DNA from: Candidatus Bathyarchaeia archaeon
GTDB lineage: Bacteria; Patescibacteriota; Microgenomatia; PFEM01; JAFGMK01
Direction: 5' to 3'
NCBI GenBank assembly: GCA_035529595.1
Contig: DATKWK010000035.1
Location: 49,067-113,066 of the forward strand
DNA length: 64,000 nucleotides
In this document: piece by piece, positions 5,611 through 48,568 of the stretch
Position numbering within the stretch: the stretch's first letter is position 1
How the letters are laid out: every line of letters starts with the position of its first letter
The notes under the pieces: generated by a model
What the model was told of the DNA's origin: nothing
What the model saw: only the letters and a program-made list of their open reading frames with translations
Databases searched by the model: none
Made by a program: the position numbers and the translations under genes

Positions 5611-6573
5611 TTATTTTATACCCGTAAACATGTCTTCATCGCTTTGATTTTCAATTATCGCCTTTATAAACTGAGTGTTTTGTACCTGCCCGATTTTCCA
5701 ATTTCCATAGTCCATAAAAGCATCAAGATTGCTGTCAACCAATATTGGTAAAACCTCTTTCCATCCGAGCTTCGAACCATAAGCAGCAAGCAAGGCTTCG
5801 TTTGGATACGACGCTTCTATCGCCCGCTTTCTGACTATTCTCAAACCGTCATCAAAAGATGTTCCTTTCTGAGCGGCGATAATATGAGCCTGAAGATGAA
5901 TATTCACCAGAGTTGAACGAGCCTCTTCCATAAATCGAGAAAAGGGCAGATCTGTAAGAACAAGGCTATTCTCTATTAGAAAAGATCTAAACCGGTTTCT
6001 TAAAATTCGGACATTTCTCTCCTGAAAATTAAGGCCGAGTTGTTTATTGACATATTGAAGTGCTTCCGCGCAACCAAAGGTTGAGTAAGAATCTTCATTA
6101 GCTATGTCGAAATCGACTACAGACCTATAGGCAGGGCATAAATATAAAACCATCCCTCCAATTAAATCGGCGATATTATCGATTCCGTAATTGCCAGCGG
6201 CATACGACTTCTTTACCATTATTAAGCCGCTGCTGGATAAAAAATGAGCATGGGCTACCTCAGTGGCAACCTGAAGTTGTTGTCTAAACCAATTCGAAGA
6301 CAAAACCGCCGGATGAAGCATTAGCTGATTCTCAGCTGCTATCTGTTCTCCAAAGACTAACTCATCAACAATTATTAAAGCTTGACGATAGTCTCCGATC
6401 CGATTCCGTAGCCACCCGGGATACTGCGGGTGACTAAGACCTTGATCAATAAGCTGGCATGCCTCTCCGGTATTCAACCGTGCTTGTTTATCTTCAACCG
6501 ACGATGCCAATACGGCTTCAATAATTTGACGTTCTAAATGTTCTGGAAATGGTAAAAACACATACACCTTCAA
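5611..6573 (-). CDS. Hypothetical protein.
   Basis: A 320-aa ORF. The annotated start is TTG inside repeat copy 1, so the true start may be a downstream Met. Confidence 0.4.
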   Translation of the reverse strand: MKVYVFLPFPEHLERQIIEAVLASSVEDKQARLNTGEACQLIDQGLSHPQYPGWLRNRIGDYRQALIIVDELVFGEQIAAENQLMLHPAVLSSNWFRQQLQVATEVAHAHFLSSSGLIMVKKSYAAGNYGIDNIADLIGGMVLYLCPAYRSVVDFDIANEDSYSTFGCAEALQYVNKQLGLNFQERNVRILRNRFRSFLIENSLVLTDLPFSRFMEEARSTLVNIHLQAHIIAAQKGTSFDDGLRIVRKRAIEASYPNEALLAAYGSKLGWKEVLPILVDSNLDAFMDYGNWKIGQVQNTQFIKAIIENQSDEDMFTGIK

Positions 6574-6678
6574 GGTGTCTTACCCTTGACACCTCGGTCA
6601 TCCGATGTAAACGGACAAATCCACGCTAGGCCCCCAAATAGCGTGATCATAAAAAACACAAATAATCGAGCTATTTCC
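6564..6678. repeat. Copy 1 of a ~115-nt hairpin-rich direct repeat.
   Basis: About 85-90% identical to 9020..9138. It contains the near-palindrome CACCTTCAAGGTG, a GGTGTC...GACACC stem and a CACGCTA...TAGCGTG stem. Confidence 0.6.
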
Positions 6679-6721
6679 ATAATTGAGCGTATATTAACAA
6701 AACCGAACTAGTTTAAAAGGC

Positions 6722-6945
6722 TCGCCGGAGGCTAGGTAAATGTGGCGGCTTGCTTAGTTTATGAACCAGCCGCCACTCGATTGGTAGCCCAGTCTCCGCT
6801 GCAGTCGGGGCGGGCCAACACGATCCCGATTGGAAAAAGGTTGGAATTTTTCTATAATAGGCCACAGAAAGATAATCTTGTTTGCCTGCCGGAAAATTCG
6901 CCAGCGCGATGGCGGGCGTGCGGATCGATAAAAAGAGCTTTGTAG
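6722..6945. ncRNA. Candidate structured RNA or regulatory element of unknown class.
   Basis: Local GC is far above the flanks. There is a 9-bp perfect stem GTGGCGGCT...AGCCGCCAC (6760-6794) plus further GC stems (CGCC...GGCG). The 67-aa ORF 6742..6945 is arbitrary and has no RBS. Confidence 0.25.
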
Positions 6946-8855: not shown

Positions 8856-9019
8856 ATGAAAGTCAAAATTAGGAAAGCCACCAGTACGGATTTTAAGATC
8901 TTTCAAAATCTTAATACCAAGCTCTTTTTTTATGATAAAAAATTTGACCCCGAACTTGATCTGAAATGGCCGAACAAGAAAGTAGGAGTTAGTTACTATC
9001 AGGATCTGCTTAAAGAAAA
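8856..9019 (+). pseudogene. N-terminal fragment of a GNAT acetyltransferase, truncated where repeat copy 2 begins.
   Basis: MKVKIRKATSTDFKIFQNL is a typical GNAT start. The reading frame then runs into the repeat sequence and ends after 73 aa. Confidence 0.35.
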
Positions 9020-9138
9020 TAATAGTTTAACACACCTTCAAGGTGTCTTATCCTTGACACCTCGGTCATCCAGATAAATCCAGGCTAGGCCCTTAAATAG
9101 CGTGAAATCATAAAAAACACGAATAATCAAGCTATTTC
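9020..9138. repeat. Copy 2 of the ~115-nt hairpin-rich direct repeat.
   Basis: Aligns with 6564..6678 (ACACCTTCAAGGTGTCTTA.CCTTGACACCTCGGTCATCC...AAATAGCGTG...CATAAAAAACAC.AATAATC.AGCTATTTC). Confidence 0.6.
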
Positions 9139-9142
9139 GTAG

Positions 9143-9160
9143 GTGACCCCACAGGGAAAT
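9143..9160 (-). repeat. Degenerate copy of the tRNA-Glu 3' end. It is a candidate far att site (attR-like) for the tRNA-Glu island.
   Basis: GTGACCCCACAGGGAAAT matches plus-strand 12261.. GTGACCCCACGGGGAATC at 16 of 18 positions in the same orientation. I estimate a chance match in 64 kb at about 0.003. Confidence 0.4.
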
Positions 9161-9320
9161 ACCTCAAACACCATCTCAGTCTATCTTTTAACCACCTATC
9201 AGAAATTCAATGGGTATTATCTCCCCCAGTCGATCCAATTTCCTTTATCAATTTAGGTAAATTTGCTAAAATCATTTCATGGGCAAGATAGTGAGTCTGA
9301 AAGATTTAAAATAAAAGAGA

Positions 9321-9842
9321 TTGCCAAAGCCTGTCGTCTTTACTGGTGGTACCTTTGATCTTTTTCATAATGGTCATGCAGAATTCTTGCGGCTATGTAA
9401 AAGTTTTGGTCAAACTTTGGTGGTTTTAGTTTCTAATGATCGGCGGGTAAAGGACAGAAAGGGTTCTTCTAGACCTGTTATTGGAGAAAAAGATAGGTTG
9501 AAATTAGTTAGTTACCTGAAATTTGTTGATTATGCTTTTTTAGGTGGCAGTCTTAGATGTGAAGATAAAAAATTGTGTGCGGCTGTTAAGGCGGACATTT
9601 TAGTTTTGTCTGACGAAAATAAGCAAGAGAAGATGGCTTATTTAAAAAAAAGCTTTAGCAAGGAAGGCCTGGCGAAAGAGATTAAGGTGAAGTTTGTGCC
9701 AGCCAAGTTTTATTCGGCAAGTCTGTCAACTACTAGGTTGATTGAATCAATTAAAAATGGGACGGTTTGGAGGTCGGATATTAAAGAAAAATTTATTAAA
9801 AGAGGTTCATCATCCCACATTGGTAATGAAAAAAGAGCCTAA
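9321..9842 (+). CDS. Cytidylyltransferase-like (HIGH-motif) nucleotidyltransferase.
   Basis: FTGGTFDLFHNGH is the (T/H)xGH nucleotidyltransferase signature near the N-terminus. The ORF has a TTG start. Confidence 0.65.
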   Translation: MPKPVVFTGGTFDLFHNGHAEFLRLCKSFGQTLVVLVSNDRRVKDRKGSSRPVIGEKDRLKLVSYLKFVDYAFLGGSLRCEDKKLCAAVKADILVLSDENKQEKMAYLKKSFSKEGLAKEIKVKFVPAKFYSASLSTTRLIESIKNGTVWRSDIKEKFIKRGSSSHIGNEKRA

Positions 9843-9990
9843 ATAAACTAGACTCTCTTATCATTGTCAGATACCAGTTCTGACTACGAACTACCAACAG
9901 CTTATATTATACCAAGAGAATACTACGATACCTACCACCTAGTTTTTTCGCATTATGATATGGATGTTAAACTTGGTAGAATAGGACTTA

Positions 9991-10236
9991 ATGCAAACCA
10001 AAGACGAAAACATCAATCAGATTCCAACCCTCAAGCAAGCCTTGGACAAACTTATGACTTCTGGTACAGTCGTGGGGCAAATATCGGCTCCGATCTCATT
10101 CGAGGACGATTCGATCATCTTCGATAATTCACCACTATCAGCCGTAAAGTCCCTCAAAGTCAATCTGTACTCAACTGAAACAGAGGAAATGGGAATTCTC
10201 CACAAACTTCATACTATGACCAGGAGTGTAGAATAA
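9991..10236 (+). CDS. Small hypothetical ORF. It overlaps out of frame with ORF 9864..10127 and may be a decayed gene.
   Basis: 81 aa with no motif. An antisense ORF of equal size is also present. Confidence 0.15.
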   Translation: MQTKDENINQIPTLKQALDKLMTSGTVVGQISAPISFEDDSIIFDNSPLSAVKSLKVNLYSTETEEMGILHKLHTMTRSVE

Positions 10237-10238
10237 GT

Positions 10239-10805
10239 TTATCGTTTACTTTGTCTTGCAGCTTCAATGGCGAATCTGGAGCGATAATCTCCAGGATACG
10301 GACTCCAGCCAAACCCCATTTCGATAATCCCACTGAAATACTGCTGTGTATCAGGCGATAGTGTCGTGAAGTTGTCTATTAACAACCCCAAACCAGGATC
10401 ACTTTTATTGCTCGCAAGCATAAGCTGAAAAGCAAATGGCGGGTATGCAATCTCCTCGACCCATCTCCATATTTTTAACTTGGTATCAATTCGCAGTTGT
10501 GGGCCTTGGATTCTGGCTCTTGGTCCGAAATACAAAAACATTCCTAGTTCCATGCCCGAAGGAATCGCTTCCGTGGATTTTTCCAAAATAATTCGTTTTA
10601 TAGCGGGATACCTACCAGCCAAATCCCATGAACCACTCAAACTGCACATGCACGATAATACCTGTCGCACAAAGGCTCCAGGCTTGACCGCTCCATCTTT
10701 CTTGCTACCGAATGTGACATTCTCCCCAAAAGGCCCGACTGTGTTGTTTAATTGGGGAATAACTCCAGAACCGAAACCATTGATAAACTTATTTGCCTTT
10801 GCCAC
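10239..10805 (-). CDS. Hypothetical protein, the fourth and last gene of the TIR-like cassette.
   Basis: 188 aa with a GTG start 35 nt after the HNH gene stop, on the same strand. No motif recognised. The reading frame is open upstream into the HNH gene's 3' end (...TGKLYGEEYKNW-VAKANKF). Confidence 0.45.
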   Translation of the reverse strand: MAKANKFINGFGSGVIPQLNNTVGPFGENVTFGSKKDGAVKPGAFVRQVLSCMCSLSGSWDLAGRYPAIKRIILEKSTEAIPSGMELGMFLYFGPRARIQGPQLRIDTKLKIWRWVEEIAYPPFAFQLMLASNKSDPGLGLLIDNFTTLSPDTQQYFSGIIEMGFGWSPYPGDYRSRFAIEAARQSKR

Positions 10806-10840
10806 CCAGTTTTTGTATTCTTCCCCATAAAGTTTTCCAG

Positions 10841-11212
10841 TCAGTGAGTTGCAATCCCTACAGAGGGTATAACCAAAAATGCCCCCTGTTCAATTAAATG
10901 TTTTGCGTTTGGATTTTCTTCAAGCCGATCTCTCAACCAGTCGTCAAATGAAAGATGAGTGAGTCGCTCTTTATTTCCACTCGCTCTTGGTGGAATATGC
11001 TCTTTTGTCAGATTGGTAACTTTCCCACACAAACGGCATTGTCCTTGTAAGGGTCGTCTGGGAAGCATGGCAACTGTATCTTCAGAAGAAATATCGCCAT
11101 TGACTGCGATCTTTACATAACTGGAAGGAGCTGCTTGTAAAGCTTCATCAAAAAGTCGTTTTACTTCAGGGTCAGTTGGATCAATGTCTTTGGCCACTAT
11201 TTTCCAGCTCAT
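10841..11212 (-). CDS. HNH-like endonuclease domain protein.
   Basis: The zinc-finger/His-Me pattern CRLCGKVTNLTKEHIPPRASGN matches C-x2-C...(D/E)H-x2-P...G.N. Confidence 0.5.
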   Translation of the reverse strand: MSWKIVAKDIDPTDPEVKRLFDEALQAAPSSYVKIAVNGDISSEDTVAMLPRRPLQGQCRLCGKVTNLTKEHIPPRASGNKERLTHLSFDDWLRDRLEENPNAKHLIEQGAFLVIPSVGIATH

Positions 11213-11233
11213 ATTAAAATTAAGTCTATCTCG

Positions 11234-11773
11234 TTAATGAGTTGGCAAACTACTTACTCCGCATAGCAAGGCCAGTCCGAGAATCACATATACAATGCCA
11301 AACGCCCAAGGGACAAAAAGCTCGACATGAGAGAATGGAAAATATTTGTTATTGTCTTTTCCTTTGCCCAAGATGTCCCACTCATGTTTGTATATTGCCA
11401 AAGGGAGCTGTTTTTCAATGTCATGCAGGACATTGAACTTGCCAGTATTGAGTTGTTTATAAGATCTGATCAAAAACCAAAATATAACACAGATTATGAT
11501 GCCTACAAAGGCCACCATGGCTTTAATCCAAGCGTAACCCTCAAGGATTCTATACTGAATCGAAAGACCAATCAGTGAGATTAAGGCGGTGTTAATGGTG
11601 ATGAAGTAGTTGTTTGCGTTCTGTCGGCGGTCACTGATTTTCTCAATGCTCTCAATATAAAGTTTATACTGCTCCAGGTAGTGATCCTTATACTTTGATC
11701 CGTACTGCTTCTCCGTTTTGACAAATAGGTCGCTCATAGTTTGTAAATCCGAAAGCCATAGGCAGAAAGTCAA
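11234..11773 (-). CDS. Small multi-TM membrane protein. It is a candidate membrane effector with SLATT-like topology; this is not confirmed.
   Basis: N-terminal ~45-aa soluble region (MSDLFVKTEKQYGSKYKDHYLEQYKLYIESIEKISDRRQ), then two adjacent TM helices (FITINTALISLIGLSIQY and WIKAMVAFVGIIICVIFWFLI) and a third C-terminal TM helix. The likely start is ATG 11737; the track's TTG at 11773 abuts the upstream stop. Confidence 0.5.
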   Translation of the reverse strand: MTFCLWLSDLQTMSDLFVKTEKQYGSKYKDHYLEQYKLYIESIEKISDRRQNANNYFITINTALISLIGLSIQYRILEGYAWIKAMVAFVGIIICVIFWFLIRSYKQLNTGKFNVLHDIEKQLPLAIYKHEWDILGKGKDNNKYFPFSHVELFVPWAFGIVYVILGLALLCGVSSLPTH

Positions 11774-12154
11774 TCAAAGGGAATTGATAAAATTGGCGAT
11801 GCCATCCCAGCTCCACTCAATAACTTTATAGCCATCCAATTCGGCAGGGACTGATCCTTTATCATCTTTGTGTATATGCACTCCCAACATCGGCACACCT
11901 TCTTCGTCTGCACACTGCATTTCCCACTTGGCCCCATCAGCGTTCCAGGTTTTCTTGCTGATCAAAGCAATTACAGCATCACAACTCTTAATCCGTTCCC
12001 TGCATTTGGTTTTCCATGAACTGTCCCAAGGTTCTTTAACGGACATATCAGTAAATTCAAAAGGACTCCGTTTATCTTTGCCCTGTTGAACCAAAAAATC
12101 TCTGGCGTATTCGTCCTCAATGGCGAAGCTGATAAAAACTCGTTTGTTGCTCAT
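11774..12154 (-). CDS. TIR-like domain protein of the DUF1863 / MTH538-type, ThsB-like.
   Basis: KRVFISFAIEDEYARDFLVQQ matches the canonical VFISF..(E/D).. TIR start. CDAVIALISKKTW...KWEMQCADEEGVPMLGVHIH parallels the DUF1863 core (V.VLIG......SKWV.WEI..A.E....I..V). Confidence 0.55.
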   Translation of the reverse strand: MSNKRVFISFAIEDEYARDFLVQQGKDKRSPFEFTDMSVKEPWDSSWKTKCRERIKSCDAVIALISKKTWNADGAKWEMQCADEEGVPMLGVHIHKDDKGSVPAELDGYKVIEWSWDGIANFINSL

Positions 12155-12169
12155 AGTATATAGCTGCTT

Positions 12170-12198
12170 TCGGGTTTAATTATACTCTTATACAAGCC
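12170..12198 (-). promoter_or_regulatory. Sigma70-like promoter for the cassette.
   Basis: On the minus strand TTGATC, a 17-nt spacer, then TATAAT lie about 15 nt upstream of the TIR-like gene's ATG. Confidence 0.4.
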
Positions 12199-12260
12199 AG
12201 GGATCAACGAAAAGGGGACGGTTCTCAAACAGCCTCATAATTCGTAAAAGTCGGGACTTG

Positions 12261-12333
12261 TGACCCCACGGGGAATCGAACCCCGATTTTCAGGATGAAA
12301 ACCTGATGTCCTAAGCCATTAGACGATGGGGCC
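12261..12333 (-). tRNA. tRNA-Glu (anticodon UUC).
   Basis: 73-nt cloverleaf GGCCCCA/TGGGGTC acceptor with a G-U pair. T-arm CGGGG-TTCGATT-CCCCG, anticodon loop TTTTCAT, D-arm TCGTCTAATGGCTTAGGACA typical of tRNA-Glu. CCA is not encoded. Confidence 0.9.
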
Positions 12334-16888: not shown

Positions 16889-17518
16889 ATGTGCGCCCGT
16901 TACGTTTGCTTTGACAGCGAAGATTTTAAAAAAGTCTTTGGTACCATCAATACCTGCCCTTCTTTCCAGTCCTACAACATCGGCCCCGGGACGATAAATC
17001 CAACCATTCTCAGCCAAAGCCCGAGACAGATTGTAATGATGAAATGGGGTTTGATCCCTTTCTGGGCCAAAGATCCCAATATCGGTTACAAAACTATCAA
17101 TGCCCGGGCTGAGGGTATTGAAAACAAACCAGCGTTGTCTCATCCCGACTAACGGCTTTTATGAATGGAAAACCTTAAAATTGAAAGAACGGCCGGAAGA
17201 GATACCCTGGTTCATTGGCCTTAAGGATAGGGATATCTTCGCTTTGGCTGGAATTTTTGATATCTGAAAGATGCCGAGGAAAAAGAATTTTGGAGCTATT
17301 CAATTATCACTACTGAACCTAATAATCTTGTTTCGAATATTCATGACCGAATGCCGGCAATTCTTGATCAAAAGAACGAAGACTCTTGGCTTGAACAAAC
17401 AACTCCCTTACCAAAAATATTAGACCTATTAAAACCCTATCCGGCCGAAGAAATGGTCAGTTGGCCGGTTTCCAACCCACCTTGGGATCCAGATCAATTT
17501 GAAGAAGGTGTTAAGTGA
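16889..17518 (+). pseudogene. SOS-response-associated peptidase (SRAP/YedK, DUF159) disrupted by two compensating frameshifts.
   Basis: MCARYV... is the canonical MCGR(F/Y) start. Three frames continue the homology: phase 2 at 16889-17152, phase 0 at 17151-17267 (NGFYEWKTLK...IPWFIGLKDRDIFALAGI vs YedK DGWFEWKK...PFFIYRADGQPIFMAAIG), and phase 2 again at 17264-17518. The second shift sits at a T5 run. Confidence 0.65.
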
Positions 17519-17691
17519 TTAAACATCTTGCCTACTGCCTAAAATCAACTGACGAAAAAGACAAACAAGTCCTCTCAATTGATTCCCAACTTCAAGAATT
17601 AAAAGACTTTGCCAAAAAAGAAAATCTCCAGATAGTAGAAATAATTCATACACGCCGGGTGTGTAATTATATTGACACCTTGGGTATTTAA
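17515..17691 (+). pseudogene. N-terminal fragment (58 aa) of a serine recombinase/integrase.
   Basis: VIKHLAYCLKSTDEKDKQVLSIDSQLQELKDFAKKENLQIVEIIHT parallels large serine recombinase starts (K.AIY.RVST.EQ...SID.Q...L..YA...G..IV). The catalytic Ser is present. The ORF stops before the rest of the catalytic domain. Its GTG overlaps the SRAP stop (GTGA). Confidence 0.5.
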
Positions 17692-17717
17692 TGACTTTCG
17701 AGGAGTATTTTTCATCT

Positions 17718-17738
17718 GTGAGCCCGGGAGGGATCGAA
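17718..17738 (-). repeat. 21-nt duplication of the tRNA-Lys 3' end, an att-like direct repeat.
   Basis: GTGAGCCCGGGAGGGATCGAA is identical to 17887..17907, which covers the T-arm and 3' acceptor stem of tRNA-Lys. Confidence 0.6.
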
Positions 17739-17887
17739 GACGCCTCGTAAGGCTTTACATAAATGCTAGGCAGTAAACGTTATCCAAGATAATTTTCGAA
17801 GTCTCAATCGTTACCTTGCATTATCAGAGTTTCTCGCCCTCACCCGGCTCAACAAAAACCTCCCCAAAAAGGGGAATTTTTGTTGAG

Positions 17888-17959
17888 TGAGCCCGGGAGG
17901 GATCGAACCTCCGACACCTTGCTTAAAAGGCAAGTGCTCTACCACTGAGCTACGGGCCC
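17888..17959 (-). tRNA. tRNA-Lys (anticodon UUU).
   Basis: 72-nt cloverleaf GGGCCCG/CGGGCTC acceptor. D-arm GCTCAGTGGTAGAGC, anticodon stem-loop CTTGC-CTTTTAA-GCAAG, T-arm GGAGG-TTCGATC-CCTCC. Confidence 0.9.
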
Positions 17960-44821: not shown

Positions 44822-46054
44822 CTATTCAATTTCTAAAATTACGATCATCATCCAATACCAAGCCATAATCCAAGCATAAAAAAGGCTATTTAAAAAAAAG
44901 CTATGAACGCCCAAGGCAGCTAACGTCGCAAGAATAAATAAGCCAAATTGACCTGGCTTATTTTTTTCTTTCCTGCGGATTAAATTAAAAATCCCCAGCC
45001 ACAACCAAAGATAGGTAACCAAACCCGGCAGACCTGTAGTAGCCAGAACTAGCAACAGACTTGAATCGGAACCGGCACCGGCATGATTCTCTTGCCAATC
45101 GTGGCCCAAAAAACCATAGTCCCGCGCCGCATAACGATAAGCATTAAAGCCAACTCCCAGCAGAGGATGATCAAGAAAAATCTCAGTTGCCTGTTGCCAA
45201 TTTTTGATACGAGCTTCAATTGAAGCCCATCTTTCCAGCCGAACTCCCTCTCCTCCCGGCCTAGGCAAAATCACTATAGTCAGTAATAAAATAATAAAAG
45301 CCAGCCCAAAAAACCTAAATGATCTTTTTTTCCAAGCAATTATACCGGCAGCCACCAGATAAGCCAGATAACTGGTTCGGGAATACGTCAAAGCGAAAGA
45401 TAAATAAATAATGACTGCGGCAAATATCAAAATCTTCTTCTTATTTACGAAAGATGCTTGCGCAAAAAAACTTATTATCAAAATCAGTCCGAAAACCAAG
45501 ATTAAACCGGTAAATCCGGGATCCAAAAAGGTTGATACAACCCGATAATAATGAGGATCCCAATTGGCAGCTTCAAAAGTCCGTAAATCAGGCCACAGAA
45601 GATATTGAACCAAGCCAAAAAAAGCAACCGTAACGCTTAACACCATTAAATACAGTTTCAAACGATGGGTCAAAAAAGATTTCATCTTAACTTGATGATT
45701 TAAATCAAAGATACTTAAATAGAGGCCCGCGTATACTAGCCAGCGAATTAGATAAAGTGAAGAAACCAATGTTTCTTTGATGGATAGCCGTGAGATGTTT
45801 GCCAAAAGGGATAAAAATCCAACGGCAAAAAAGGCAAGAATTGGTCCAATTAAAGAAGAAAATCGAATTCTTATCTTCGCCGAAAGATGCCAAAGTAGCC
45901 AACTAACAAGCAATAGAATAAGAGACACGTCTGTCAGGTAAACTCTTACTTCTACAGGCAGCAAGGGAAGTCGAATTCTTGTCAATTGACCAAACGGAAA
46001 AGCTACCAAGAAAATATATAGAAAAAATTGACTAAGTTTTAAAAACAGATTCAT
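44822..46054 (-). CDS. O-antigen ligase / Wzy-like polytopic membrane protein.
   Basis: About 10-12 TM helices with a periplasmic loop containing ...HDWQENHAGAGSD.... It overlaps the upstream GT2 gene by 4 nt. Confidence 0.55.
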   Translation of the reverse strand: MNLFLKLSQFFLYIFLVAFPFGQLTRIRLPLLPVEVRVYLTDVSLILLLVSWLLWHLSAKIRIRFSSLIGPILAFFAVGFLSLLANISRLSIKETLVSSLYLIRWLVYAGLYLSIFDLNHQVKMKSFLTHRLKLYLMVLSVTVAFFGLVQYLLWPDLRTFEAANWDPHYYRVVSTFLDPGFTGLILVFGLILIISFFAQASFVNKKKILIFAAVIIYLSFALTYSRTSYLAYLVAAGIIAWKKRSFRFFGLAFIILLLTIVILPRPGGEGVRLERWASIEARIKNWQQATEIFLDHPLLGVGFNAYRYAARDYGFLGHDWQENHAGAGSDSSLLLVLATTGLPGLVTYLWLWLGIFNLIRRKEKNKPGQFGLFILATLAALGVHSFFLNSLFYAWIMAWYWMMIVILEIE

Positions 46055-46809
46055 CGCTGATATTCAAGCGGTCCCTTTTTCCAAAGTAAAAATAACTTGG
46101 CCCAAGATAAAAACGAGTGAAGGCTCATCATTAAAGCAACAATCAGGCCCGGCATTCTATCGAGAAAGCCGAACCGAATTAAATAATTGTATATGAACTT
46201 CCCCAAAGGATAACAAATTATTTTGAAAGTCCCGCTTTTTTTGCGCTCCTCAAACAAAGCCCAGGCATGAAGCGTACTGTAGAAATTAATGGCGTTTAGA
46301 AATTCGCTAATCGCCTGGTGAGGGTAATGGACCAGTGGAGCAGCTAGTTCGCCCACCTTTCCTTCTACTTGCCAGACTTCGTGGACTCTCCTTTCCCATT
46401 TACCCGATCCCCGGCGGGCGAGACGAAGCAGTTCTACGTTTGCTGTTTCTCCAAACTCCAGTTTTTTTCCAAAAAGAACATCCTGGCGTTTCAGATAATA
46501 GCCGATAAATTTGGGGTTCTTAATCACACTCTGAATCTCTTCTTTCAACTTAGGAGTAACCCTTTCATCGGCATCAATAAACAAAATCCAGTCTCCTTTG
46601 GCTTTATCGAGGGCAAAATTACGCTGAGCAGCAAAATCTTGATTAAGACCTCTTTGACTAACTTTTACTCCCATTTCTTGGGCAATTTGAATCGTTTTGT
46701 CCTGAGAATAATCGTCGACAACAATCACCTCATTACAAAAGACAAGGGTCTTTAAACACTCCCCGATATTTTTTTCTTCGTTTTTCGTCAGTACAATCCC
46801 AGTGAGCAT
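46051..46809 (-). CDS. Family 2 glycosyltransferase.
   Basis: GIVLTKNEEKNIGECL...VVDDYSQDKT and the later DADE block fit the GT-A DxD pattern. Confidence 0.7.
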   Translation of the reverse strand: MLTGIVLTKNEEKNIGECLKTLVFCNEVIVVDDYSQDKTIQIAQEMGVKVSQRGLNQDFAAQRNFALDKAKGDWILFIDADERVTPKLKEEIQSVIKNPKFIGYYLKRQDVLFGKKLEFGETANVELLRLARRGSGKWERRVHEVWQVEGKVGELAAPLVHYPHQAISEFLNAINFYSTLHAWALFEERKKSGTFKIICYPLGKFIYNYLIRFGFLDRMPGLIVALMMSLHSFLSWAKLFLLWKKGPLEYQR

Positions 46810-47600
46810 AGCAGTTTATTATAAGTTATCTTAAATAATAGAAATAATAAATATGAATACGCAAATATTCTATTTTTCCAAACAATATATTTATTGATAA
46901 ATCTTAAGTTCCCTTTTAAGAGATAATAAACGCTGTTCCATGGTTTATCCACTATGTATTTGAGTTTATGAAATATCACAACTCCTAATTCAATATCTAT
47001 CGTTAAGTTTGCTCTTCTTGCCCTGATACAAAAATCAACATCCTCCCAATATAAAAAGAACTTCTCGTCTAAAAAACCAATTTTAAAAAAAACTTTAGAT
47101 TTAATTTTCATACAACAACCAGATACATAATCAATTACTTGAGGCTTAAAAATTGAACGAAAACGTTTGTGTTTGGTCCTTCCCAAGATATAATTAACTC
47201 TTCCCCCTAAATCATAAACAGCTTTACCATTAAAAATATATTTTATTACCGGCGATACTATATCTGCTGGATTTTGTATTAATCTTTTAGAAAAACCTTC
47301 CTTAAAATTAGTATCTGGATTAAGAAGAATGATATTTTTGAAATGCAATCTTAAAGCTCGACGTATACCAATATTTGCTGCAACTGCAAAACCCTTATTA
47401 ACAGAATTTTTTAAAACTATAACAGAAGAACTAAATCTTTCTATAATTCTTTCTAACGATCCGTCTGTAGATGCATTATCGATTACAATTATTTTCACTT
47501 CCTCCTTAATTAGTAAACCTAAGCATGATAATATTTGATTCCCACAATTAAAATTTACCAAAATTATACAAGTATTTTTCATTTGACCAAACCAAAGCAT
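46788..47600 (-). CDS. Family 2 glycosyltransferase.
   Basis: Motifs IIVIDNASTDGS, NKGFAVAANIGI and ILLNPDT. Confidence 0.65.
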   Translation of the reverse strand: MLWFGQMKNTCIILVNFNCGNQILSCLGLLIKEEVKIIVIDNASTDGSLERIIERFSSSVIVLKNSVNKGFAVAANIGIRRALRLHFKNIILLNPDTNFKEGFSKRLIQNPADIVSPVIKYIFNGKAVYDLGGRVNYILGRTKHKRFRSIFKPQVIDYVSGCCMKIKSKVFFKIGFLDEKFFLYWEDVDFCIRARRANLTIDIELGVVIFHKLKYIVDKPWNSVYYLLKGNLRFINKYIVWKNRIFAYSYLLFLLFKITYNKLLCSLGLY

Positions 47601-48568
47601 CGTATTTTTTTATATACCATATGCTGATTAAAACTATCTATACTCGTTTTTCTTTGTCCAAGAATAGTTATTCGTTTTGCAATAATCTTCTTAGCATTTT
47701 TCAACAACCAAATATCCGCCATAAAAGCTTCTTTCCAAAATCCTCTCATACTCATATAAAGTAATGTATTCAAATGAACCATCGGAATTGTGATGAATCT
47801 CCAACGTTTTAATAATAAACCAATAGGAAAATTTTTAATTATACTAAATGTCATATTTCTAAACTGTAAGTATTCTACTGATCTGCTAATCCTTTTTGAG
47901 GTTGCTTTATTATGATGAAATACTATGGCTTTAGGTTCGAACCAGAACTCACATCCAATTAATTGAGCCCGTAGGCACCAATCAACGTCTTCCCCATATG
48001 CAAAAAAATCTTCATCAAACAATCCTATTTTCTTAAAACAGTTAGCTTTATAAATGCTAGCACATGCCGTAATCAAGAATACTTTTTCTCGAATATTCCA
48101 TTTAGAAGTATCATCCCCATTTCCTCTATGAAAAGCTTGGCCTACACTATTTATAACATCCCCTGCTGAATCTATTATATTAGGATTATTATAATTTAAT
48201 ATTTTCGCCGCTACTGCACATATTTTGTTACTCCTCCGAATCGATTCAACTAATGTCTGTATAAAATTCTTTTCTACTACCGTATCATTATTTAGAAGAA
48301 TTATGTATTTAGATCGAGACACAGATATTCCCTGATTTACAGCCTTGGCAAATCCTAGATTATTACGATTAACAATAGTTCTGACAGTTGGATAACGAGA
48401 ATTAATTAAACGAAGTGATCCATCGATCGAGCCATTATCAACTACTATGATGTTAAAATCTTGAAACCATTGATCCATTAAGGATTTTAGACAATTATCT
48501 AATAACTGTTCTCCGTTCCAATTAGGAATTATTACAGTAACTAATTTTGTTTTCGCTTTATTAATCAT
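47579..48568 (-). CDS. Family 2 glycosyltransferase.
   Basis: Motifs VTVIIPNWNGEQLLDNCLKSL, VVDNGSIDGS and LLNNDT. Confidence 0.75.
   Translation of the reverse strand: MINKAKTKLVTVIIPNWNGEQLLDNCLKSLMDQWFQDFNIIVVDNGSIDGSLRLINSRYPTVRTIVNRNNLGFAKAVNQGISVSRSKYIILLNNDTVVEKNFIQTLVESIRRSNKICAVAAKILNYNNPNIIDSAGDVINSVGQAFHRGNGDDTSKWNIREKVFLITACASIYKANCFKKIGLFDEDFFAYGEDVDWCLRAQLIGCEFWFEPKAIVFHHNKATSKRISRSVEYLQFRNMTFSIIKNFPIGLLLKRWRFITIPMVHLNTLLYMSMRGFWKEAFMADIWLLKNAKKIIAKRITILGQRKTSIDSFNQHMVYKKIRCFGLVK

What the first reader, a model, noticed from the sequence alone, without database searches (positions are those of the whole stretch)
9143..12333. tRNA-Glu-anchored ~3.1 kb genomic islet with a degenerate copy of the tRNA 3' end at its far boundary
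An 18-nt sequence at 9143-9160 matches the plus-strand image of the tRNA-Glu 3' end (12261-12278) at 16 of 18 positions in direct orientation. That is the signature of site-specific integration into a tRNA 3' end. Between the two copies lie only non-core genes: a HIGH-motif nucleotidyltransferase, overlapping out-of-frame small ORFs that look like a decayed gene, and the four-gene TIR-like cassette. No integrase remains, so this would be a stranded, integrase-less island.
Basis: seen in the sequence. Interest (0 to 1): 0.6.

Follow-up and report, generated by a model that had tools for sequence, protein, structure and literature searches.

The report
Decayed gene islet beside tRNA-Glu
A 3.1 kb block of defence-type genes sits directly after a tRNA-Glu gene and ends in a worn copy of the tRNA's last 16 bases, which is the usual scar of a mobile element that inserted there and later lost its integrase; it is an ordinary kind of feature, in a poorly sampled small-genome bacterium.

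Summary
Bases 9143-9160 match 12260-12277 at 15 of 18 positions, with a 15/16 core that starts exactly at the tRNA-Glu 3' end, in direct orientation. Chance expectation is about 0.02 per window. A second tRNA in the window (Lys) has an exact 21-nt copy of the same tRNA part 169 nt downstream.

Between the Glu copies lie:
- a cytidylyltransferase-like gene;
- two unassignable small ORFs;
- a TIR + 8xMP membrane-protein pair that also occurs as a pair on plasmids of distant phyla.

There is no integrase. The far boundary is more complex than reported. A 116-nt duplicated spacer abuts the tRNA fragment and truncates a GNAT gene at 9031.

No empty site could be found. The closest relatives share at most 55% protein identity and no synteny. 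Composition is not distinctive. Other genomes with a near-identical tRNA-Glu 3' half often carry a large serine recombinase that ends inside that tRNA, so the site is an integration hotspot.

Verdict: most likely a decayed, integrase-less remnant of a tRNA-integrated element carrying defence cargo (confidence 0.55). It is a new member of a known kind, of modest interest.

The parts
12260..12333 (-). tRNA-Glu (anticodon UUC), intact. Its 3' terminal 16 nt (12260-12275) form the proximal repeat (attL-like).
   Evidence: ARAGORN. Rfam tRNA, 62.7 bits. It is 74/74 identical to the tRNA-Glu of a Paceibacterota MAG, L017.
9143..9160 (-). Degenerate displaced copy of the tRNA-Glu 3' end (attR-like). 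The core is 9143-9158 at 15/16. With G9142 it matches CCA-encoding tRNA-Glu genes of other genomes at 16/17.
9161..12259 (.). Islet body, 3,099 bp, between the two tRNA-end copies.
   Evidence: GC is 0.407 against 0.400 for the window. Its tetranucleotide distance is at the 93rd percentile of same-size windows.
9321..9842 (+). Cytidylyl/adenylyltransferase-like gene (173 aa), apparently intact. Its best model is rfaE domain II-like, but far below the family cut-off.
   Evidence: Pfam PF01467, E 2e-14. TIGR02199 scores 76.8 bits against a cut-off of 181.5. Reading through the upstream in-frame TAA adds nothing.
9864..10236 (+). Two overlapping small ORFs (87 and 81 aa) of unknown nature. Either a decayed gene or an 81-aa orphan gene.
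   Evidence: No Pfam, PADLOC or PHROG match. No similarity to serine recombinases.
10239..11212 (-). HNH_5-like gene, frameshifted at a C5 run (10882-10886 on the + strand). Adding one base restores a 324-aa ORF.
   Evidence: The two halves match one continuous frame on the Iamia plasmid NZ_CP050949 (42-44% identity). HNH_5 scores E 2.5e-5, below the cut-off. The same two ORFs appear in the Logan and JGI assemblies.
11234..11773 (-). 8xMP-family membrane protein. It is 167 aa from ATG 11737, or 179 aa from TTG 11773.
   Evidence: Pfam PF24838, E 2.9e-41. Homologues occur on 35 plasmids at 24-44% identity.
11774..12154 (-). ThsB-type TIR-domain protein (126 aa), immediately upstream of the 8xMP gene on the same strand.
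   Evidence: Pfam PF08937, E 9e-11. PADLOC ThsB, E 4e-9. Homologues occur on 65 plasmids at up to 53% identity.
12179..12207 (-). Sigma-70-like promoter match (TTGATC, 17-nt spacer, TATAAT) between the tRNA and the TIR gene.
   Evidence: This is a consensus match only.
9032..9138 (.). Copy B of a 116-nt duplicated spacer 'U'. It ends 4 nt from the tRNA fragment. Its left end is the point where the GNAT reading frame loses homology.
   Evidence: blastn against 6564-6677: 83.6% over 116 columns, E 6e-29. Alignment.
6564..6677 (.). Copy A of spacer U. It contains the start codon region of the orphan 318-aa gene (5611-6567, minus strand).
   Evidence: The 318-aa protein has no homologue other than itself.
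8856..9077 (+). Truncated GNAT acetyltransferase. Only residues 1-~59 of a ~157-aa protein remain, and homology ends at about 9031-9038.
   Evidence: phmmer hits are 155-160-aa proteins matched over their first 50-60 residues. Those hits are Acetyltransf_1. Alignment. The C-terminal part is absent from the whole window.
17717..17737 (-). Comparison case: an exact 21-nt copy of the T-loop-to-3'-end of tRNA-Lys (gene at 17887-17959), 169 nt downstream of it.
17515..17691 (+). 58-aa ORF, possibly the N-terminal fragment of a serine integrase. It ends 25 nt from the tRNA-Lys fragment.
   Evidence: Pfam Resolvase, E 0.023. phrog_95 'integrase', E 0.0018. Both matches are weak, and BLASTP against the L019 recombinase is not significant.

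Best explanation
The interval 9143-12333 is the remnant of a mobile element that integrated site-specifically into the 3' end of tRNA-Glu.

**Proposed steps.**
1. The element carried its own copy of the tRNA's T-loop-to-3'-end segment.
2. Recombination in that segment left an intact tRNA (12260-12333), whose last ~16 nt and downstream sequence come from the element.
3. It pushed the original 3' end to 9143-9158, where it is no longer under selection and has begun to mutate.
4. The element has since lost its integrase and most of its body by deletion.

**What remains.** A TIR + 8xMP two-gene module remains. It is inferred to be a Thoeris-like abortive-infection pair, with the TIR making a nucleotide signal and the membrane protein acting as effector. 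A frameshifted HNH-like gene, a nucleotidyltransferase-like gene and unassignable debris also remain.

**Left of the fragment.** That side shows a further rearrangement, a duplicated 116-nt spacer fused to a truncated GNAT gene. The locus has therefore probably been hit more than once, by tandem accretion or by re-integration of an aberrantly excised piece.

**Shown:** the repeat, its register and orientation, the gene content, the pseudogenes and the duplication.
**Inferred:** the integration event, the loss of the integrase and the defence function.
For: 1. **The repeat.** A 15/16 direct repeat starts exactly at the tRNA 3' terminal base and lies on the 3' side. Shuffles predict 0.02 such matches, and only 0.55% of 16-mers in the window have such a partner.
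2. **A common crossover class.** The repeated segment is the T-stem/T-loop-to-3'-end part of the tRNA. This is one of the two common crossover classes for tDNA islands: 1,836 of 3,919 Islander islands (PMC4383910).
3. **A second case in the window.** tRNA-Lys has an exact 21-nt copy of the same tRNA part 169 nt downstream. Next to it are a weak serine-integrase N-terminal fragment and an SRAP pseudogene.
4. **Sequence past the tRNA end.** The two copies diverge immediately after the tRNA end. The displaced copy reads CACC, like the CCA-encoding tRNA-Glu genes of 10 of 14 other genomes, whereas the resident gene reads CACA. This is what is expected if the resident 3' end was supplied by the element.
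5. **Mobilome-type cargo.**
   - TIR and 8xMP are adjacent in the same order on plasmids of Haematospirillum, Polaromonas, Novosphingobium and Synechococcus.
   - The HNH-like gene has a single plasmid relative, in an Iamia defence-type neighbourhood with a tyrosine recombinase.
6. **Decay.** The HNH-like gene is frameshifted, a GNAT gene is truncated exactly at the junction, and a 116-nt spacer is duplicated.
7. **An integration hotspot.**
   - In 3 of 14 genomes sharing this tRNA-Glu 3' half, a large serine recombinase gene ends inside the tRNA.
   - The same is true of 34 of 42 metagenome loci of that recombinase family, at Glu, Lys, Gln, His and other tRNAs.
   - Two further loci show attP-like forms with only a tRNA fragment.
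Against: - No integrase, excisionase or recombinase remnant lies inside 9161-12259.
- No empty site or polymorphism could be observed.
  - Relatives of the flanking genes share at most 55% identity and are not syntenic.
  - The orphan 318-aa flank gene has no homologue.
  - A junction 25-mer found nothing in metagenome contigs.
  - The other assemblies of this genome are 100% identical.
- GC content and tetranucleotide usage are not distinctive.
- The repeat is short and was found post hoc.
- The serine-recombinase elements in other genomes carry 39-51-nt tRNA fragments, longer than the 16 and 21 nt seen here. The link to that family is therefore loose.
- The cytidylyltransferase-like gene could be an ordinary chromosomal gene.
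- The duplicated spacer next to the fragment shows that non-integrative rearrangements also happened here.
Confidence: 0.55

Rival explanations
1. The scar is real, but the unit is larger and composite. The whole stretch from about 5.6 kb to 12.3 kb would be an accretion of at least two remnants at tRNA-Glu. It comprises the orphan 318-aa gene, spacer U, GDSL-NUDIX-HAD-truncated GNAT, spacer U, the tRNA fragment and the TIR islet. On this reading the 9143 fragment is an internal junction rather than the far boundary. One possible route is that a piece excised aberrantly, taking the flank U and the first codons of the 318-aa gene fused to a broken GNAT, and then re-integrated by homology. This would resemble a lambda-dgal type event.
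For: - U(B) carries the same TTGAAGGTGT start region as the 318-aa gene and then stops. It is fused directly to the GNAT break.
- The U copies flank the GDSL-NUDIX-HAD block in direct orientation.
- The 318-aa gene is an orphan, as is typical of mobile cargo.
- The tRNA-Lys locus also fits a two-remnant layout.
Against: - No tRNA-like core is detectable next to U(A).
- HAD and NUDIX are neighbours in distant relatives too, although in the opposite order, which suggests that block is native.
- The exact order of events cannot be reconstructed from one genome.
Confidence: 0.25
2. No mobile element was involved. The 130-nt block (first codons of the 318-aa gene + U + 16 nt of tRNA end) would be a leftover of local duplication, deletion or illegitimate recombination in a rearrangement-prone region. 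The genes between it and the tRNA would be ordinary chromosomal genes that happen to include defence genes.
For: - The U duplication and the GNAT truncation show that ordinary rearrangements occurred here.
- Composition is host-like.
- There is no integrase.
Against: - A duplication junction inside a tRNA T-loop that still leaves an intact tRNA needs a donor that supplies the tRNA 3' end. That is what integrative elements do (PMC4383910).
- A tandem duplication would also duplicate the 3.1 kb body, and no such duplicate exists (self-BLAST).
- The same precise T-loop-to-end copy recurs at tRNA-Lys.
Confidence: 0.12
3. The 15/16 match is a coincidence and the interval has no defined boundary.
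For: The match is short, has mismatches and was found by eye after reading the whole window. No other tRNA-like sequence surrounds it.
Against: - Shuffles predict 0.02 matches.
- The empirical rate is 0.55% per 16-mer. Two of six tRNAs in the window show a downstream copy, both in the right orientation, on the right side and in the right register.
- The copy sits at a demonstrable rearrangement junction.
Confidence: 0.05

Closest known systems
tRNA-gene (tDNA) genomic islands as catalogued by Islander (Hudson, Lau & Williams 2015, PMC4383910; Williams 2002)
   Same: An intact tRNA is followed by foreign cargo and then by a displaced 3' tRNA fragment in the same orientation. The crossover falls in the T-stem/T-loop region. 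Tandem arrays at one tRNA are known.
   Different: There is no integrase gene, so Islander's own filter would reject it. The interval is only 3.1 kb. The fragment is 16 nt with one mismatch. Composition is host-like. No empty site is available.
Integrase-less att-flanked remnants such as CIMEs (cis-mobilizable elements derived from ICESt1/ICESt3 of Streptococcus thermophilus). This comparison is from my own knowledge and was not checked in a paper here.
   Same: A short cargo block is bounded by att-type direct repeats and has no recombination genes. It is thought to arise by deletion of a larger integrative element and to take part in accretion.
   Different: Mobilisation in trans is untested and unlikely, given the mutated core. 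No related active element is known in this genome.
Thoeris-type TIR defence systems with membrane effectors: type II (Macro-TM effector), type V (DUF2270/ThsF) and type VII (SLATT/ThsH). Source: bioRxiv 10.64898/2025.12.03.692087.
   Same: A small ThsB-like TIR protein is encoded immediately next to a small multi-helix membrane protein. The pair is carried on mobile DNA.
   Different: The partner here is Pfam 8xMP (PF24838). It is not among the effectors named in that study, is not recognised by PADLOC and is not a SIR2, Macro, DUF2270 or SLATT Pfam match. Defence activity is untested.
Large-serine-recombinase integrative elements and prophages
   Same: Other genomes with a near-identical tRNA-Glu 3' half carry such a recombinase ending inside the tRNA. 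A weak serine-integrase fragment sits beside the tRNA-Lys scar in this window.
   Different: No recombinase sequence is left in the Glu islet. Those elements carry 39-51-nt tRNA fragments, against 16-21 nt here.

Membership tests
tDNA-integrated genomic island (Islander definition) | Lies directly on the 3' side of an intact tRNA gene | tested here: met
   tRNA-Glu is at 12260-12333 on the minus strand, and the islet runs from 12259 downward.
tDNA-integrated genomic island (Islander definition) | A displaced fragment of the same tRNA lies at the far end, in the same orientation and on the correct side | tested here: met
   9143-9158 matches 12260-12275 at 15/16 in direct orientation; 0.02 matches are expected by chance.
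tDNA-integrated genomic island (Islander definition) | An integrase gene lies inside the island | tested here: not met
   No recombinase domain was found in any ORF of 9161-12259. There is no tblastn similarity to serine recombinases. Only a weak phmmer test was run with one tyrosine integrase.
tDNA-integrated genomic island (Islander definition) | Presence/absence polymorphism (an empty site in related genomes) | not testable with these tools
   The nearest relatives of the flank genes share at most 55% identity and are not syntenic. The junction 25-mer is absent from metagenome contigs. The other assemblies are identical.
tDNA-integrated genomic island (Islander definition) | Atypical base composition | tested here: not met
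   GC is 0.407 against 0.400 for the window. The tetranucleotide distance is at the 93rd percentile.
Integrase-less att-flanked element (CIME-like) | Bounded by att repeats, without recombination genes, and mobilisable by a related element | tested here: inconclusive
   The first two features are met. Mobilisation cannot be tested, the core carries a mismatch, and no active partner element is seen in the 64 kb window.
Thoeris defence system | ThsB-type TIR protein | tested here: met
   PF08937, E 9e-11. PADLOC ThsB models, E 4e-9.
Thoeris defence system | A recognised effector (SIR2-SLOG, Macro-TM, or the later ThsC-L types) encoded next to the TIR | tested here: not met
   The neighbour is 8xMP (PF24838). 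It has no PADLOC hit and no SIR2, Macro, SLATT or DUF2270 Pfam hit. It is not named in the type V-XI survey or its supplements.
Thoeris defence system | Protection against phage, with signal production by the TIR | not testable with these tools
   This needs an experiment.
MITE / IS-type repeat (considered for spacer U) | Terminal inverted repeats, a target-site duplication and many copies | tested here: not met
   There are only two copies in 64 kb, both at this locus. The ends are not inverted repeats.

The most novel reading that the evidence does not exclude
The tRNA-Glu and tRNA-Lys scars in this window could be the decayed remains of serial integrations by tRNA-targeting large serine integrases. 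I found that recombinase family ending inside tRNA-Glu, Lys, Gln, His, Ile, Thr and Met genes in 34 of 42 metagenome loci, with attP-like forms that carry only a tRNA 3' fragment. The Islander authors wrote in 2015 that serine integrases were not known to target tRNA genes. On this reading the surviving TIR + 8xMP pair would also be an uncharacterised Thoeris-like system, delivered in this way into a small-genome (Patescibacteria-like) bacterium.
Probability: 0.2. Interest if true: 0.6.

Novelty: new member of a known kind. Interest (0 to 1): 0.35.

Why it matters
If the reading is right, even a roughly 0.4-0.85 Mb streamlined genome from a barely sampled lineage takes up defence genes through tRNA-targeted integration and then erodes them. 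It also gives a dated-by-decay example of how an integrase-less 'defence islet' forms.

The practical value lies more in the by-products:
- a TIR + 8xMP gene pair that recurs on plasmids and is not in current defence catalogues;
- a large-serine-recombinase family that appears to use tRNA genes as attachment sites.

The islet itself is an ordinary kind of feature.

Tried and rejected
1. **Empty site via the right flank.** Metallophosphoesterase homologues share at most 55% identity, sit on 1-3 kb contigs and are not next to a tRNA.
2. **Empty site via the left flank.** HAD homologues share at most 54% identity. HAD-NUDIX linkage is kept, but there is no tRNA-Glu, GNAT or cytidylyltransferase synteny.
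3. **Empty site via the 318-aa gene.** It has no homologue at all.
4. **Junction 25-mer in metagenome contigs.** No hits, not even the source genome.
5. **A 'second strain'.** The JGI cluster members suggested one, but the locus is 100% identical. The protein differences are only in how the start codon is translated.
6. **A premature stop in the cytidylyltransferase-like gene.** The idea was that an in-frame TAA at 9313 interrupts it. Read-through adds 1.6 bits, so the idea is rejected.
7. **A third, older tRNA-end core next to spacer copy U(A).** No significant similarity.
8. **Serine-recombinase remnants next to tRNA-Glu or in the small ORFs.** None found.
9. **A distal displaced fragment for the recombinase elements in other genomes.** None within the 10 kb held.
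10. **Phage links.** Viral-contig searches with 8xMP, the restored HNH protein and the recombinase gave essentially nothing. The tRNA 23-mer found two phage att-like tRNA-Glu(CUC) fragments from unrelated GC-rich hosts.
11. **Structure of 8xMP.** The single-sequence model is poor (pLDDT 72, pTM 0.31), so no fold search was run. There is no PDB sequence match either.
12. **Rfam.** Nothing but tRNAs.
13. **Literature on '8xMP' / PF24838.** Nothing relevant found.

Full report
**1. The observation**

ARAGORN places tRNA-Glu(UUC) at 12260-12333 on the minus strand; Rfam agrees.

The plus-strand string GTGACCCCACGGGGAATC at 12260-12277 is the reverse complement of the tRNA's last 18 bases. Its only other occurrence in the window with up to three mismatches is GTGACCCCACAGGGAAAT at 9143-9160.

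The informative part is 15/16 (9143-9158 against 12260-12275). It covers tRNA positions about 59-74, from the T-loop to the terminal base. It starts exactly at the 3' terminal base, and both copies point the same way.

Evidence against chance:
- Shuffles predict 0.02 matches per window.
- Only 0.55% of the window's 16-mers have a same-strand partner with at most one mismatch.
- Two of the six tRNAs in the window have such a copy just downstream. tRNA-Lys (17887-17959) has an exact 21-nt copy of TTCGATCCCTCCCGGGCTCAC 169 nt downstream, again running from the T-loop to the same last base.

I therefore treat the match as real, derived from the tRNA end, and not as chance.

**2. What lies between the copies**

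| Coordinates | Strand | Feature | Evidence |
|---|---|---|---|
| 9321-9842 | + | Cytidylyl/adenylyltransferase-like protein | PF01467; nearest NCBIfam model is rfaE domain II, far below cut-off |
| 9864-10236 | + | Two overlapping small ORFs | No match in Pfam, PADLOC or PHROGs |
| 10239-11212 | - | Two ORFs of 188 and 123 aa, halves of one HNH_5-like gene | See below |
| 11234-11737/11773 | - | 8xMP membrane protein | PF24838, E 3e-41 |
| 11774-12154 | - | ThsB-type TIR protein | PF08937; PADLOC ThsB |

The two HNH halves align in a single frame to one gene on an Iamia plasmid. Adding one base to a C5 run at 10882-10886 restores a 324-aa ORF. The Logan and JGI assemblies carry the same break.

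No recombinase domain is present anywhere in the interval. The large serine recombinases found later have no tblastn trace here apart from the tRNA itself.

**3. The far boundary is more complex than reported**

A self-comparison showed that 9032-9138 duplicates 6564-6677, at 83.6% over 116 columns with E 6e-29. The 9032-9138 copy ends four bases from the tRNA fragment.

- Copy A contains the start of an orphan 318-aa gene on the minus strand (5611-6567). That gene has no homologue other than itself among 5.8 billion clusters.
- Copy B keeps the same TTGAAGGTGT start and then hits a stop.
- Exactly where copy B begins, the 73-aa ORF at 8856-9077 stops making sense.

That ORF is the first ~59 residues of a ~157-aa GNAT acetyltransferase. 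The phmmer hits are 155-160-aa Acetyltransf_1 proteins matched only over their N-termini. The missing two-thirds is nowhere in the window.

The order along the plus strand is therefore:
1. orphan gene
2. U(A)
3. a 330-nt GC-rich non-coding stretch
4. GDSL, NUDIX, HAD, truncated GNAT
5. U(B)
6. tRNA fragment
7. islet
8. tRNA-Glu

I looked for a third, older tRNA-end copy beside U(A) and found none.

The simplest reading is that U was once the sequence immediately downstream of tRNA-Glu, and that at least two events separated them. The order and mechanism of those events cannot be fixed from one genome. Tandem accretion, or re-integration of an aberrantly excised piece through homology in U, are both possible.

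**4. Is the cargo foreign?**

Composition does not say. GC is 0.407 against 0.400, and the tetranucleotide distance is at the 93rd percentile.

Distribution does say something:
- 8xMP homologues occur on 35 plasmids from cyanobacteria, proteobacteria, actinomycetes, clostridia and haloarchaea.
- TIR homologues occur on 65 plasmids, many of them conjugative, at up to 53% identity.
- On at least four plasmids the two genes are adjacent in the same order as here, among toxin-antitoxin genes, transposases and recombinases: Haematospirillum CP014526, Polaromonas MG869622, Novosphingobium CP063449 and Synechococcus CP143872.
- The HNH-like gene has one plasmid relative. It sits beside a methyltransferase, a TIGR02391 protein, an XRE/DUF4411 pair and a tyrosine recombinase.

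By contrast, HAD on the left flank keeps its NUDIX neighbour in distant relatives, though in the opposite order. This suggests that block is native.

**5. The empty-site test**

- Homologues of both flank proteins share at most 55% identity, sit mostly on short contigs and show no tRNA-Glu synteny.
- A pattern for the tRNA-Glu 3' half found 14 genomes. One is a Paceibacterota MAG with a 74/74 identical tRNA, but its contig ends 70 nt downstream, and none shares flank genes.
- A 25-mer spanning the left junction found nothing in metagenome contigs.
- The other assemblies of this organism are base-for-base identical over 18.9 kb.

NCBI labels the proteins 'Candidatus Bathyarchaeia archaeon'. The tRNA identity points to a Patescibacteria-type bacterium instead, so the label is probably a binning error.

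**6. Indirect support from other genomes**

In three of the 14 genomes (L014, L016, L019), a large serine recombinase lies on the opposite strand immediately downstream of tRNA-Glu. It has Resolvase, Recombinase and Zn-ribbon domains. Its last ~17 codons (GDPTGNRTP.FRMKT*) run into the tRNA's 3' half.

A metagenome scan with this protein gave 77 loci. Of 42 loci with a complete C-terminus and room beyond it, 34 have an opposite-strand tRNA at the recombinase's 3' end:

| tRNA at the recombinase 3' end | Loci |
|---|---|
| Glu | 17 |
| Gln | 6 |
| Lys | 5 |
| His | 3 |
| Ile | 1 |
| Thr | 1 |
| Met | 1 |

Two loci (L056, L061) have only a 3' tRNA fragment of about 48 and 39 nt after the recombinase. 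That is the attP-like form.

The 3' ends of tRNA-Glu and tRNA-Lys are therefore real integration targets in this kind of organism. In the window itself, a 58-aa ORF 25 nt from the tRNA-Lys fragment has weak matches to the Resolvase N-terminus (E 0.023) and to PHROG 95 'integrase' (E 0.0018). It is followed by an SRAP pseudogene in three frames.

Caveats:
- Those elements carry longer tRNA fragments than the 16 and 21 nt seen here.
- I found no distal fragment within the 10 kb available.
- The 58-aa match is weak.

The integrase type responsible for the Glu islet remains unknown.

**7. Comparison with known systems**

The layout is the tDNA-island signature as defined by Hudson, Lau and Williams: a regenerated tRNA and a displaced fragment that mark the island ends. 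T-stem-region crossovers account for about half of their islands (PMC4383910). The interval fails their integrase criterion, so it is best called an integrase-less remnant. From my own knowledge, it is comparable to CIME-type leftovers of integrative elements.

The TIR-8xMP pair works like a Thoeris system with a membrane effector (types II, V and VII; bioRxiv 10.64898/2025.12.03.692087). It is not a member of any named type. 8xMP is not in PADLOC and has no SIR2, Macro, SLATT or DUF2270 match. It is not mentioned in that survey. A single-sequence structure model was too poor to use.

**8. Verdict**

The interval is most likely (0.55) a decayed, integrase-less remnant of a tRNA-Glu-integrated element carrying defence cargo.

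The neighbourhood has been rearranged more than once. A composite, multi-remnant reading has probability 0.25, element-free rearrangement 0.12, and chance 0.05.

This is a new member of a known kind and of modest interest (0.35). The more interesting leads are side products: the tRNA-overlapping serine recombinase family, given the 2015 statement that serine integrases were not known to target tRNA genes, and the recurring TIR-8xMP pair.

Noticed in passing
window 17717-17737 and 17887-17959 (also 17515-17691 and 16889-17518): tRNA-Lys has an exact 21-nt direct copy of its T-loop-to-3'-end segment 169 nt downstream. A 58-aa ORF lies 25 nt beyond that copy, with weak serine-integrase N-terminal matches (Pfam E 0.023; phrog_95 E 0.0018). 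Next comes an SRAP/YedK gene broken into three frames. It looks like a second, more eroded integration scar.
   Followed up: partly
window 6564-6677 and 9032-9138: A 116-nt direct repeat (84% identity, with two small indels) that includes the start of the orphan 318-aa gene. The second copy is fused to a GNAT gene truncated after ~59 codons, and it ends 4 nt from the tRNA-Glu fragment. How it arose is unresolved.
   Followed up: partly
L014, L016, L019; L034-L110 (e.g. L035, L057, L063, L075; attP-like forms in L056 and L061): A family of large serine recombinases whose genes end inside an opposite-strand tRNA gene (Glu, Gln, Lys, His, Ile, Thr, Met) in 34 of 42 informative loci. Two loci carry only a 39-48-nt tRNA 3' fragment. 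This suggests serine integrases that use tRNA genes as attachment sites, which the 2015 Islander paper said was not known. Distal att copies were not found within 10 kb.
   Followed up: partly
window 11234-12154; plasmids CP014526, MG869622, CP063449, CP143872 (L025, L026): The TIR + 8xMP (PF24838) gene pair recurs as an adjacent pair on plasmids of distant phyla. It is not recognised as a system by PADLOC or named in the recent Thoeris type V-XI survey, so it is a candidate uncharacterised TIR defence pair.
   Followed up: partly
window 6700-6945 (+ strand): A GC-rich ~230-nt non-coding stretch lies between spacer U(A) and the GDSL gene. It folds at -89 kcal/mol (z -2.7; the minus strand is not special) and matches no Rfam family. 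It is possibly an unannotated small RNA.
   Followed up: partly
window 10882-10886: The HNH-like gene is interrupted by a 1-base frameshift in a C5/G5 homopolymer. The same sequence is present in three assemblies. It may be a fixed pseudogene or a slippage-prone tract.
   Followed up: partly
window about 45500-48000: This region has the lowest GC and the most deviant tetranucleotide profile in the window, much more atypical than the islet. It was not examined.
   Followed up: no
whole window (proteins HUW21930-HUW21939): NCBI names these proteins 'Candidatus Bathyarchaeia archaeon'. However, the tRNA-Glu is 74/74 identical to that of a Paceibacterota MAG, and homologues carry Patescibacteria-type labels. 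The archaeal label is probably a binning or taxonomy error.
   Followed up: partly
L007 10010-10052 and L008 3440-3490: Two viral contigs carry only the 3' two-thirds of a tRNA-Glu(CUC). In L008 it lies next to the C-terminus of a tyrosine-integrase-like ORF, which is an ordinary phage attP at tRNA-Glu. The hosts are unrelated and GC-rich.
   Followed up: no
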